Source of the DNA: Perna viridis
Taxonomy: Eukaryota
Reading direction: 5' to 3'
NCBI GenBank assembly: GCA_037379345.1
Contig: CM074519.1
Span: 22,532,103-22,596,102 of the forward strand
DNA: 64,000 nucleotides
Shown here: piece after piece, positions 59,801 through 62,800 of the stretch
Numbering within the stretch: position 1 is the stretch's first letter
How the letters are laid out: each line of letters starts with the position of its first letter
Made by a program: the position numbers

Positions 59801-62800
59801 AATTTCTGAAATATTGCAATGTCCTAGATTGTCACCTTTGGTGGCCATTTTATAAATGGTGGCAATCAGGTAAAAATAAATGATACGAACTCCGAAATTT
59901 CAATGAGACACAGCAAACAACAAAGTTTCATTAAAATTGCCCACTAAATAAAAATGTTATAAGCGTGAGAAAAAAGTTGATTTTGGTAACCATGAAATTT
60001 TCCGTTTTTCGATGGCAATGGACAACATATCGATCCGATCTGTTTGAATAATTTTATTAGACTCATTAAGTACTACCACCTTACCAAATTTCAAATTTCT
60101 AGCCACCTAGATTTCCGAGATATTGCAATGTCCTCGATTATGACCTTTAGTGACCATTCTAAAAGGCAGCATGATTTCTGAGATTTCAATGAGACACAAC
60201 ATACAATAAATTTTCACTAAAATTTCCCACTGAATAAAATTCGTAGATGTGAGAAAAAGGGGATTTTGGTATTCATAAAATTTTCAGTTTTTTAAGTTGC
60301 CATGGCAACGGACAACATATTGATTTTTTTTTTGCTCAATTCTCTTAGCCTCATTGAGTTCTATCATCATATTAGATTTCAACTTTCTAGTCACCCAGGT
60401 TTTCAAGATATTGCAATATCCTAGATTATGACCTTTAAGCGTTTCATGGAACAGTAGTCAAAAGATCTGATTCATCCTTTCTCAATACGATCTACCTACA
60501 TACCAAAATCCAGTTCATTCCCTTTTGCGATGTTCTCTAAAATTTCTGGACAAAAATCATTAGAAGAAAAAAAAAGAAGAAGAAACAGAAGAGTAATAAT
60601 ATGTCACCCGACATTTGCGTAGGGCGACATAATAAAAAGAAGAAAAAAATGGCAATATGTCGCCTGATATTCGTCTTAATACATCATGATATGTTTTAAA
60701 TTGTGCTAGAAGCAAGTCACATTTCGCTTTCCCCAAATGTTCTCAGAACCCAAAAATATTGAATTATGCATACAATTTTGATGGCATGCACATCTTTGGA
60801 GTAAGTCCTAACTTCTTACAAAGTTTCGTTCTAATCCCCTCTTTACATGTAATTACCGAAAAAACGAGCAGACAATTGCAAGTTCACCGGTTAAAATAAT
60901 AATAATGATAATAATAATACAGAAGAAACAGTGCAAAAAGAAGTAGTGTTTTTAATAATAATAAACGAAGCAAAAACAATAAGTCGCAAAACTTTGTTTT
61001 GGCGACTAAAGTATGATTACTGACACGCTTTCCAAATAATGCTAGCTGCTTGATATCAATATAGAGGTCTCAGTCCTCGTCACCATTTTCAGTACGAACT
61101 TTATCATTGACATTACAGTCACCAAGAGCCTAATTTGAGTTTGTAGGGAGATTAACTTGTAATACCGAGTATGGACCTTTATAGGTTTCGTATTTCTAAC
61201 AAAAAACAAAATGTGTTCTGTCTGTTCATAGCTCGCATCTTAAAACATTTTGAAAAGTAATGAAGAAAAAAAAACCTAGTTGAAGCATGACCCTGCATGT
61301 AAATACATGTCTTTGGTTGACGTAATACTGTTAATATCATGATTTTCAATTTTAAGAATAGCTAAATATATAACTTTGTCCTCTTACATGTACAGGTTAC
61401 ACTTGCCTCATGTTAGGTTAATGCGTTACCCTTCTATAAAAAATATATCTATCGTATTGGAAATCTAACTTACAATAGTCTTTACTCCGATAGCCTTTTC
61501 TATAAGAACAGTATTGTTTTCATAAGTACCAAATGTCCATTTCATCTCTCGAACGCCACTGTGAACATCGAATGCTTTAAACTGTATTGCTATTTCCGAT
61601 AAGTCTATACTATGATGTACAAAAAGTTGTTTGTGTCCGTTCCGTGTTAACCAAATGTCAGATATTTCCGGAACAGAACGGTCAATGTACACGGAAACAC
61701 TGTCATTGAGTGTGTGATTCATTATATCTGAAACTTGTAAGTGTAATGTAAACTCTTCACCATCAGCTTTTGCTGGATCAGCACATAAAGTTTCTGAAGT
61801 AAAATTTCCAACACTACCAGAAAGGATTTGATTGCCATCTCTAGTAAGAACAAAATAGAATTGTATAAGTCCATTAACATTCATTGTACCGGAAATTGGT
61901 AAAACACCAGTAGTTTGATCATACACTCCATTAATACCGCGTTCGTGCAAAATTGGTCGGAGGGGATTGTTTTTTATATAGAAATTGTTGAAAAATCTCT
62001 TCGCCCAAGAGAAGCACAATTGTTCATGATTGGTTTGCCAACGATATTGTGTAAGATTAGAAGCCGTCTGAACACGAACAGGATTAAAATTGTTTATTTT
62101 AATTCTAGACGTATTGTCATACAGAACAAACCGTCTCGCTTGTTTGACATTGTTGGCAAAATCCTTCACCTCAAGTAAAACTGCGTATAGCATTGGACTC
62201 CGTTGGGGTAACTCGATAACAATGTTAGTTTTATTTTTCGAAGTCGTCCAATTCCCCACAGATGTTTTATCTCTCATAAGAAGTGCTGGATCTGAAGATG
62301 TAACTTCATACAGCTGAATTTCGTAACTCTCTATGCCAGAGGCTAATGCAATTGCATCTGAATTATAGTCCGGATAAGGATCGATCCAGCCATCTATGTC
62401 AAGATGTATAGTACTTGCAGATGTAACTCTTGTGGACAGTTTCAGAGGATTGTCGTTACAGCGTCCTCTTTCAAAACAATGCGTTGGAGCTGCATTATCA
62501 TATATATAGCAAAGTCTTCTGAAAGTTTCTGTTTTTTCATATGTTATGTTCTTTGTTCCATTTCGAGTCAAATCTTTAGGTTTCAAATAGCCCCCTCCTT
62601 TTAATACAAACGTTAGGCATAATCTAAAAATAATTGTGATGTTTGACGTGTGTTTGTATCACATAAAAAAAAGCATACAAAAAATATTTCCTGATAATTT
62701 CAATTTCTCAATGCTACGAAATGCATTTTTACTACTATGTTATTTGAAATTGACAAGTCTTATTCTATCGGTCATTGATTTTAAAAAAAGTCTTTTTTAT

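What the first reader, a model, noticed from the sequence alone, without database searches (positions are those of the whole stretch)
61474..62623. Sharp identity switch inside exon 8: paralogues are a mosaic (gene conversion or chimera)
Seen: the first ~300 codons of exon 8 are only about half identical between A and B by eye. From 'DIMNHTLND' onward (A ~19203-19455; B ~61474-61725) the DNA is nearly identical, including third positions. High identity continues through exon 9, and introns 9 and 10 still align. It then falls again towards exons 18-20, whose introns do not align. Inference: a conversion tract or unequal crossover homogenised the central stalk while the N-terminal region stayed or became divergent. 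That variable-head, constant-stalk pattern would suit a recognition protein.
Basis: partly seen in the sequence, partly recalled or inferred. Interest (0 to 1): 0.65.

Follow-up and report, generated by a model that had tools for sequence, protein, structure and literature searches.

The report
Mosaic paralogues in a mussel-like genome
Two neighbouring copies of a giant secreted bivalve gene have an old, divergent front part joined inside one exon to a much younger shared rest, the ordinary footprint of sequence exchange between duplicated genes.

Summary
Both paralogues lie on the minus strand: A exons 8-20 at 20364-6351, B at 62623-37435. In exon 8, divergence drops sharply at B 61729-61704 (A 19458-19433); 0 of 1000 permutations matched this. 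Synonymous divergence falls about tenfold: dS 2.3 (95% 1.4-infinity) in the 304 head codons, against 0.25 (0.21-0.29) from the junction to mid exon 11. It then rises to 0.59 (0.53-0.65) as far as exon 20. Introns agree: introns 9 and 10 are 79% and 76% identical, introns 11-19 sit at the 50-65% baseline. Outgroup-scaled protein trees show the same depth contrast. The likeliest cause is non-allelic recombination that homogenised everything 3' of the junction, in at least two events or as a gradient. This could be interlocus gene conversion or an unequal-crossover hybrid. The head is not hypervariable: dN/dS is 0.14, and a likely Mytilus orthologue pair keeps it. The "recognition protein" idea therefore stays speculative. 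The exon 8 fold is tandem FN3/Ig-like beta-sandwiches in an uncharacterised mollusc family. This is a known kind of event in a new gene family.

The parts
61708..62623 (-). Copy B, exon 8 head: old stratum (about 305 codons)
   Evidence: dS 2.3 (bootstrap 1.43-infinity), dN/dS 0.14, third-position mismatch 0.53
61704..61729 (-). Copy B junction: 2-lnL support interval of the change point, inside the conserved DIMNHTLND codons
   Evidence: the motif is conserved in Mytilus relatives; it lies in the predicted strand at residues 304-313, just before the IDRSVPEIS linker
61474..61707 (-). Copy B, exon 8 tail: start of the young central stratum
   Evidence: dS 0.22, 93% nucleotide identity, 59-nt perfect run from 61707
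19436..20364 (-). Copy A, exon 8 head (old stratum)
19203..19435 (-). Copy A, exon 8 tail (young stratum)
15513..19202 (-). Copy A, rest of the central young stratum: intron 8, exon 9 (18949-17752), intron 9, exon 10 (17294-15940), intron 10, first part of exon 11
   Evidence: third-position mismatch 0.164; dS 0.247 (0.206-0.294); introns 9 and 10 are 79% and 76% identical
46423..50006 (-). Copy B, rest of the central young stratum: 3' flank of intron 8, exon 9 (49914-48714), exon 10 (48230-46876), first part of exon 11
6351..15512 (-). Copy A, 3' stratum: rest of exon 11 to exon 20 (the stop codon TAG follows at 6350-6348)
   Evidence: dS 0.585 (0.526-0.649); introns 11-19 at baseline identity
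37435..46422 (-). Copy B, 3' stratum: rest of exon 11 to exon 20 (the stop codon TAG follows at 37434-37432)
49915..61473 (-). Copy B intron 8, 11,559 nt against 253 nt in A. Both ends align with A's intron 8. The middle holds transposon remains.
   Evidence: Tc5/pogo DNA-binding domains at 55743-56411; the repeat at 57198-58009 is 88.6% identical to 3785-4607
41452..41459 (-). Copy B exon 17: run of eight A (T on the + strand) with one base more than copy A, which shifts the frame
   Evidence: It is either a real recent frameshift or a homopolymer assembly error.

Best explanation
A and B are old paralogues of a giant secreted bivalve protein built of FN3/Ig-like beta-sandwich domains. Their exon 8 heads have diverged for a long time, with synonymous sites near saturation. 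Everything 3' of a point inside exon 8 was later made alike by non-allelic homologous recombination. This was most likely interlocus gene conversion, in at least two events of different age or as repeated events with a 5'-to-3' gradient. The last exchange covered about 3.9 kb of copy A, from the junction to mid exon 11, with introns 8-10 included. An earlier one reached the stop codon. The 5' limit lies in the codons of the family-wide motif DIMNHTLND, eight to ten residues before a domain boundary. Two inferred reasons could hold it there. Beyond that point the copies may be too different for heteroduplex formation. Alternatively, tracts that overwrite a functionally distinct head may be selected against. 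Shown here: the strata, their significance, the agreement of introns with synonymous sites, and purifying selection in all parts. Inferred: the mechanism, the direction of transfer and the reason for the boundary.
For: Divergence strata:
- dS by stratum is 2.34 (1.43-infinity) for the head, 0.247 (0.206-0.294) for the centre and 0.585 (0.526-0.649) for the 3' part; the bootstrap intervals do not overlap.
- Per-exon values are and four-fold-site values.
- The exon 8 change point was reached by 0 of 1000 permutations.
- A second change point in mid exon 11 (third-position mismatch 0.164 against 0.300) was also reached by 0 of 1000.

Non-coding DNA:
- Introns 9 and 10 are 79% and 76% identical, as dS of about 0.25 predicts. 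Introns 11-19 are 50-65% identical.
- Nothing upstream of B exon 8 aligns with the region upstream of A exon 8.
- All 14 perfect runs of 30 nt or more fall in the central stratum.

Outgroup-scaled depth:
- In the head, the A-B path is 0.88 against 1.03 to Mytilus P0001. In exon 9 it is 0.14 against 1.23 (1.17/1.36 and 0.14/1.27).
- The head is not intrinsically fast. For the likely orthologue pair P0165/P0011 the head path is 0.21 and the exon 9 path 0.38.

Continuity of locus B:
- Both ends of B's 11.6-kb intron 8 align with A's 253-nt intron 8, so B was one continuous locus when the exchange happened.
Against: - Only two copies are in hand, so conversion, an unequal-crossover hybrid and replacement of one head from a third paralogue give the same two-sequence picture.
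- Head and exon 9 trees have the same topology for A and B (sisters in both). The evidence is branch depth, not incongruent topology.
- Third-position GC shows no biased-conversion signal: 0.27-0.30 in the head, 0.32-0.34 in the centre and 0.32-0.35 in the 3' part.
- After the junction, a smooth gradient (AIC 2893.1), one step (2894.5) and two steps (2888.9) fit about equally. The number of events is therefore open.
- The two copies are separated by an N run (30442-30572), so their tandem order rests on that join.
- No reads were available to exclude a mis-join.
Confidence: 0.7

Rival explanations
1. Hybrid gene by a single unequal crossover or partial duplication. One copy took its stalk, from the junction to the 3' end, from a neighbour in a tandem array. 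Later local conversion made the centre younger. This is still a recombination mosaic, but it begins with a chimera rather than with homogenisation of two complete old genes.
For: There is one sharp 5' junction in a conserved motif and no 3' junction inside the gene; similarity runs to the stop codon of both copies. Family members carry different N-terminal modules on a similar stalk (WSC, C-type lectin, SUEL, PLAT, EGF), so module exchange has happened in this family.
Against: One crossover predicts a single dS for the whole stalk. Instead 0.25 and 0.59 differ, with non-overlapping intervals, so at least one further exchange is needed anyway. The 3' flanks beyond the stop codons do not align, although at dS 0.6-0.8 they would not be expected to.
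Confidence: 0.2
2. Assembly artefact: a chimeric contig or mis-join at a repeat shared by paralogues, or haplotigs placed in tandem.
For: A 59-nt perfect run begins exactly at the junction. An N run lies between the copies. Copy B carries a homopolymer frameshift that may be an assembly error.
Against: After the junction the copies are 93% identical, not 100%, and they keep diverging gradually, so nothing is collapsed. The reading frame, splice sites and phases are intact in both copies through all 13 exons except for the one homopolymer. dS 0.25 and intron identity of 76-79% are far beyond what I recall as typical allelic divergence in bivalves, a few percent (recalled). A mis-join would also need a third copy that shares the same exact run.
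Confidence: 0.05
3. Both parts are the same age, but the head evolves faster. This could be diversifying selection on a recognition surface, or locally raised mutation.
For: Among Mytilus relatives the N-terminal part is also the less conserved part in several pairs.
Against: Selection on protein cannot raise dS tenfold. Head dN/dS is 0.14, the lowest of the three strata. Introns follow the same strata. In deep comparisons the head is no faster than exon 9: head/exon 9 path ratio is 0.84 and 1.07 for A-P0001, and 0.56 for the P0165-P0011 pair.
Confidence: 0.05

Closest known systems
Concerted evolution of duplicated genes by interlocus (ectopic) gene conversion, as surveyed in Drosophila (PMC2588116; search listing, abstract start and found passages read)
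   Same: Paralogous blocks are kept similar long after duplication. Divergence varies along the block when measured in windows. Gene conversion and unequal crossing-over are named there as the two mechanisms.
   Different: Here the tract ends inside an exon of a 13-exon stretch, spans several kb including introns, and shows at least two ages. No sister-species loci were available for the tree-shape test used in that paper.
Teshima-Innan picture of a locally diverged region kept by selection inside genes that otherwise undergo conversion (as described in passages of PMC2588116; the original papers were not read)
   Same: A diverged segment (the head) sits beside homogenised sequence. It is expected if overwriting the segment is deleterious.
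   Different: The head here is a whole terminal block with saturated dS and low dN/dS, not a narrow island around a selected site. A simple homology barrier explains it equally well.
Hybrid genes from unequal crossover between tandem paralogues (haemoglobin Lepore, red/green opsin hybrids; recalled, not from any call)
   Same: A single junction inside homologous coding sequence, with 5' and 3' parts of different ancestry.
   Different: Those are recent, nearly identical on each side of the junction, and known from populations. Here the event is old (dS 0.25 or more) and layered.
Mytilus 'uncharacterized protein' LOC143075038 (P0010, 3078 aa) and LOC134727462 (P0011, 3120 aa) and their M. coruscus relatives (P0015, P0165, P0166, P0174)
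   Same: They are collinear with exons 8-20 of A and B: 46-51% identity in the head, 72-73% in the exon 8 tail, 52-54% in exon 9. The DIMNHT motif is shared by most of them; P0010 has DIMKNILND at the equivalent position.
   Different: No function is described. They are only about 50% identical, so they are family members and not shown to be orthologues. Their N-terminal modules differ (SUEL lectin in P0165 and P0002).

Membership tests
Interlocus gene conversion / concerted evolution tract | A paralogous segment with significantly lower neutral divergence than adjoining homologous sequence | tested here: met
   dS 0.25 against 2.3 across the exon 8 junction; 0 of 1000 permutations reached the observed change point
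Interlocus gene conversion / concerted evolution tract | Non-coding sequence inside the tract shares the low divergence | tested here: met
   Introns 9 and 10 are 79% and 76% identical; introns 11-19 are 50-65%; intron 7 is unalignable
Interlocus gene conversion / concerted evolution tract | Tree shape: within the tract the paralogues of one species group together, while outside it each groups with its own orthologue | tested here: inconclusive
   A and B are sisters in both the head and the exon 9 trees; only the depth differs (path 0.88 against 0.14). No protein more than 60% identical to B exon 8 was found, so no sister-species orthologues were available.
Interlocus gene conversion / concerted evolution tract | Both ends of the tract identified, which distinguishes conversion from crossover | tested here: not met
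   Only the 5' end is sharp. The 3' side is a step in mid exon 11 or a gradient (AIC 2894.5 against 2893.1), and similarity runs to the stop codon.
Interlocus gene conversion / concerted evolution tract | GC-biased signature at silent sites in the tract | tested here: not met
   GC3 is 0.32-0.34 in the centre, 0.27-0.30 in the head and 0.32-0.35 in the 3' part. This feature is supportive, not obligatory.
Fibronectin type III / Ig-like beta-sandwich array proteins | Pfam fn3 match at the curated cut-off | tested here: not met
   The best match in the window is exon 19 of A: 19.5 bits against a cut-off of 25, E 0.0012. Relatives pass: P0013 42.0, P0012 42.7 and P0015 34.1 bits.
Fibronectin type III / Ig-like beta-sandwich array proteins | Predicted fold of tandem beta-sandwiches resembling solved FN3/Ig arrays | tested here: met
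   The AF2 model of B exon 8 has pLDDT 87.7 and is almost all strands. Foldseek against the PDB gave 353 matches at E<=0.001; among the 45 rows listed most are FN3 or Ig-like arrays (RbmA, SiiE, contactins, LAR). TM-scores are only 0.16-0.33 because the domain arrangement differs.
Polycystin-1 / REJ family (considered because relatives carry WSC, C-type lectin, SUEL and PLAT modules; the link is recalled) | REJ, PKD, GPS or polycystin channel domains | tested here: not met
   No such Pfam match in exon 8 of A and B or exons 9, 10, 11, 13, 17, 18 and 19 of A, nor in P0010, P0013, P0006, P0012 or P0015. Both copies end at a stop codon in exon 20. Exons 12, 14-16 and 20 were not scanned, and no test for membrane segments was run.

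The most novel reading that the evidence does not exclude
The junction is not a one-off. The DIMNHTLND strand at the end of the head module may be a recurrent, conserved exchange boundary in this mollusc-specific family. Stalks would be homogenised among paralogues again and again in different mytilid lineages, while heads and N-terminal lectin-type modules stay distinct. That would be a modular 'many heads on one stalk' system for a large secreted adhesion or recognition protein. Hints from Mytilus:
- The pair P0015/P0011 shows a significant identity step at residue 472, four residues from the motif (0 of 300 permutations).
- P0010 has a head path about 5 times its exon 9 path to P0015.
- Short members P0006 and P0007 stop at the motif and continue into a hydrophobic, membrane-anchor-like segment.
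Probability: 0.15. Interest if true: 0.6.

Novelty: new member of a known kind. Interest (0 to 1): 0.33.

Why it matters
Partial homogenisation makes duplicated genes look younger than they are. It also breaks any single-tree or single-dS analysis of this family. Anyone dating the expansion of these giant bivalve genes, or testing them for selection, must partition them at the junction. The case also gives a clean, well-bounded example with three strata, an intron-supported tract and a boundary at a structural domain edge. It lies in a mollusc-specific family with no described function. Beyond that, it is an ordinary outcome of recombination between tandem paralogues.

Tried and rejected
- Pfam on exon 8 of A and B and on seven other exons of A gave nothing above the curated cut-offs. 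The weak DUF7743, Big_3_2, Peptidase_C4 and TumE matches were set aside as sub-threshold.
- The ESM Atlas gave only 'hypothetical protein' clusters from Mollusca. Its recognition value of 1836 is below the 2300 mark, so this is weak evidence.
- A polycystin/REJ link was considered and not supported (see the membership test).
- GC3 as a sign of biased conversion showed no signal.
- Step against gradient models after the junction could not be resolved.
- Topological incongruence among Mytilus relatives was weak. Head data reject the exon 9 grouping (P0010, P0015, P0002) at p-AU 0.029, but the group was named after seeing the trees. Exon 9 data do not reject the head grouping (p-AU 0.335).
- Of 7 Mytilus protein pairs tested for an identity step, 4 had 0-2 of 300 permutations reaching it. 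Only P0015/P0011 steps at the motif (residue 472; motif at 476); P0015/P0165 steps 34 residues before it (442); the two P0010 pairs step 120-140 residues after it. The other 3 pairs were not significant (45, 94 and 94 of 300).
- No representative more than 60% identical to B exon 8 was found among 1.84 billion cluster representatives. The three word-index searches found 9, 5 and 18 relatives. I therefore could not test whether either head has a closer partner elsewhere in the same genome.
- tblastn and tblastx found no exon 7 of B in 62624-64000.
- Left out or unavailable:
  - The spliced model was searched exon by exon only.
  - Genome contigs (bacteria and archaea) was not used, as it is irrelevant to a mollusc gene.
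  - No supplementary files were read.
  - The N run was left as it is.

Full report
**What is in the window**

The window has 33% G+C and one N run at 30442-30572. A self-comparison shows one long region present twice in the same orientation. Region A is about 6347-20374. Region B is about 37431-50006, continuing at 61432-62633 after an 11.4-kb interruption.

The reading frames are on the minus strand. The nearest database proteins are 'uncharacterized' proteins of Mytilus and other bivalves. The contig is therefore molluscan, not human.

I derived the exon model from open frames, A/B alignment and splice signals. Phases match between the copies. The first 12 exons in each copy (8-19) have AG/GT borders, except one GC donor after exon 15 of A; exon 20 has an AG acceptor and ends at the stop codon. 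A TAG stop sits at the same place in exon 20 of both copies.

Exon 8 is 20364-19203 in A and 62623-61474 in B. The finding's coordinates are exactly exon 8 of B.

| Part of exon 8 | Codons | Amino-acid identity | Nucleotide identity | Third-position identity |
|---|---|---|---|---|
| Head | 298 | 54% | 63% | 47% |
| Tail | 84 | 92% | 93% | 86% |

- A likelihood change-point scan of the 1146 aligned exon 8 nucleotides puts the switch at B 61725 / A 19454. The support interval is B 61729-61704. Mismatch is 0.366 before and 0.067 after, and 0 of 1000 permutations reached the statistic.
- Third positions alone place the switch at B 61707, again 0 of 1000.
- The DIMNHTLN codons still carry four synonymous differences.

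**It is a difference in age, not in constraint**

| Stratum | Codons | dS (Nei-Gojobori, 95% bootstrap interval) | dN/dS |
|---|---|---|---|
| Head | 304 | 2.34 (1.43-infinity) | 0.14 |
| Centre (junction to mid exon 11) | 1012 | 0.247 (0.206-0.294) | 0.35 |
| 3' part (mid exon 11 to exon 20) | 1626 | 0.585 (0.526-0.649) | 0.24 |

- Four-fold sites give the same order: mismatch 0.59 in the head, 0.14-0.16 in the exon 8 tail to exon 10, and 0.17-0.49 in exons 11-20.
- Introns agree. Introns 9 and 10 are 79% and 76% identical, as dS of about 0.25 predicts. Introns 11-19 give 50-65%, about what the unalignable intron 7 flank gives.
- Nothing upstream of B exon 8 aligns with the region upstream of A exon 8.
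- All 14 perfect runs of 30 nt or more lie in the central stratum. The longest run in the head is 14 nt.

**Outgroup control**

I built maximum-likelihood trees from 26 database proteins that cover both the head and exon 9. These were chosen from the 164 proteins then held, for having at least 270 aligned head residues and 370 aligned exon 9 residues.

- A and B are sisters in both trees, nearest to Mytilus edulis P0001.
- In the head, the A-B path is 0.88 against 1.03 from A to P0001.
- In exon 9, it is 0.14 against 1.23 (a 15-row subset).
- The head is not a fast region in general. For A-P0001 the head/exon 9 path ratio is 0.84 and 1.07.
- The pair P0165 (M. coruscus) and P0011 (M. trossulus) is 86% identical in the exon 8 region and likely orthologous. 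Its head path is 0.21 and its exon 9 path 0.38. Head identity per 50-residue window is 77-96%.

**After the junction**

- Third-position mismatch rises from 0.164 to 0.300, with a best single step in mid exon 11 (B 46423 / A 15513). Of 1000 permutations, 0 reached it.
- A further weak step lies at the end of exon 17 (0.268 against 0.343; 19 of 500 permutations).
- A smooth logistic gradient (AIC 2893.1), one step (2894.5) and two steps (2888.9) fit about equally.
- There were therefore at least two exchanges of different age or a polarity gradient. I cannot say which.
- Third-position GC shows no biased-conversion signal.

**What the protein is**

- Exons 8-20 are collinear with Mytilus proteins of 3078 and 3120 residues (P0010, P0011). 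Identity is 46-51% in the head, 72-73% in the exon 8 tail and 52-54% in exon 9.
- In the library of 1.84 billion cluster representatives, 430 match B exon 8 at E<=0.001. None is above 60% identical.
- Pfam finds only weak fn3 signals in the window. Relatives pass the fn3 cut-off.
- An AlphaFold2 model of B exon 8 was built with a 29-row alignment. It has pLDDT 87.7 and pTM 0.74 and consists of successive beta-sandwiches.
- Its Foldseek matches in the PDB are mostly FN3/Ig-like arrays such as RbmA, SiiE, contactins and LAR. TM-scores are low (0.16-0.33), so only the domain type is shared.
- The junction lies in the strand at residues 304-313, just before the linker IDRSVPEIS. That linker resembles the xDxTPP-like linkers repeated along the later exons.
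- Relatives carry different N-terminal modules: WSC, C-type lectin, SUEL lectin and PLAT. Copy A has an EGF-like exon at 25669-25884.
- Two short Mytilus members stop at the motif and continue into a hydrophobic segment (by eye).
- This gives circumstantial colour to a binding role, but no function is known.

**Mechanism and rivals**

The best reading is non-allelic homologous recombination between old paralogues. Most likely this was interlocus gene conversion that spared the head (confidence 0.7). Two inferred reasons could fix the boundary. The copies may be too diverged beyond it. Alternatively, overwriting the head may be selected against. The second is the situation described in the passages of PMC2588116 that I read.

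- A hybrid gene from unequal crossover followed by later conversion remains possible (0.2). With two copies it cannot be separated from conversion.
- An assembly chimera is unlikely (0.05). The shared part is 93% identical, not 100%, and both genes are intact in frame and splice signals. However, no reads were available, and the two copies are separated by an N run.
- Faster evolution of the head at equal age (0.05) is contradicted by dS, the introns and the orthologue control.

**Hints that the pattern recurs in Mytilus (protein level only)**

- Of 7 pairs tested, P0015/P0011 steps at residue 472 (motif at 476), from 0.36 to 0.20 mismatch, 0 of 300 permutations.
- P0015/P0165 steps at residue 442 (2 of 300).
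- P0010 against P0015 and against P0165 steps 120-140 residues after the motif (0 of 300 each).
- Three pairs show no step (45, 94 and 94 of 300).
- Tree incongruence is weak: p-AU 0.029 in one direction, for a group named post hoc, and 0.335 in the other.

**Limits**

- The spliced model was searched exon by exon.
- No supplementary files were read.
- For PMC2588116 I read the listing, the abstract start and the found passages. For the other papers I saw only the listing and abstract starts.
- My two literature searches turned up nothing on this gene family. They were not aimed at it by name, since it has none.

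Noticed in passing
window 41452-41459 (copy B, exon 17): A run of eight A (minus strand) has one base more than copy A and shifts the frame. The downstream frame stays open and conserved through exon 20. It is either a very recent pseudogenising change or a homopolymer assembly error. B also lacks 9 nt nearby relative to A.
   Followed up: partly
window 49915-61473 (copy B, intron 8): Intron 8 is 11,559 nt in B against 253 nt in A. 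Both ends align with A's intron. The middle holds a Tc5/pogo-type transposase DNA-binding fragment (55743-56411) and a repeat (57198-58009) that is 88.6% identical to 3785-4607. The repeat is also related to 25317-25597 and 26523-26880.
   Followed up: partly
window 12622-12623 (copy A, donor after exon 15): Copy A has a GC donor (GCAAGT) where copy B has GT (GTAAGT) at the aligned position.
   Followed up: no
window 30442-30572: An N run of 131 bases lies between copy A's upstream exons and copy B's 3' end. The tandem order of the two copies therefore depends on this join. It was left untouched.
   Followed up: no
window 1656-1931 and 3785-4607: A GIY-YIG endonuclease-like open frame lies downstream of copy A (Pfam E 6.3e-05), near the repeat shared with B's intron 8. 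My recollection is that this combination suggests a Penelope-like retroelement.
   Followed up: no
window 62624-64000: No counterpart of A's exon 7 (about 21370-21650) was found upstream of B exon 8 by tblastn or tblastx. B's 5' exons lie outside the window, or its intron 7 is longer than 1.4 kb.
   Followed up: partly
proteins P0006, P0007 (Mytilus, 752 and 696 aa): These short family members carry a WSC domain and the head. They end the homology at DIMNHTLNDSVTVYIKH and continue into a hydrophobic, membrane-anchor-like stretch. The head therefore also exists without the long stalk.
   Followed up: no
proteins P0015, P0166, P0174 (Mytilus coruscus): All three list a longest contig of the same length (986,484), so they may be neighbours in a cluster. 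P0166 and P0174 are 70-100% identical in 50-residue windows.
   Followed up: no
window 15940-17294 / 46876-48230 (exon 10): Exon 10 has the highest dN/dS of the gene (0.42). It is only 31-34% identical to the full-length Mytilus relatives, against 52-54% for exon 9. It is the least conserved module of the stalk.
   Followed up: no
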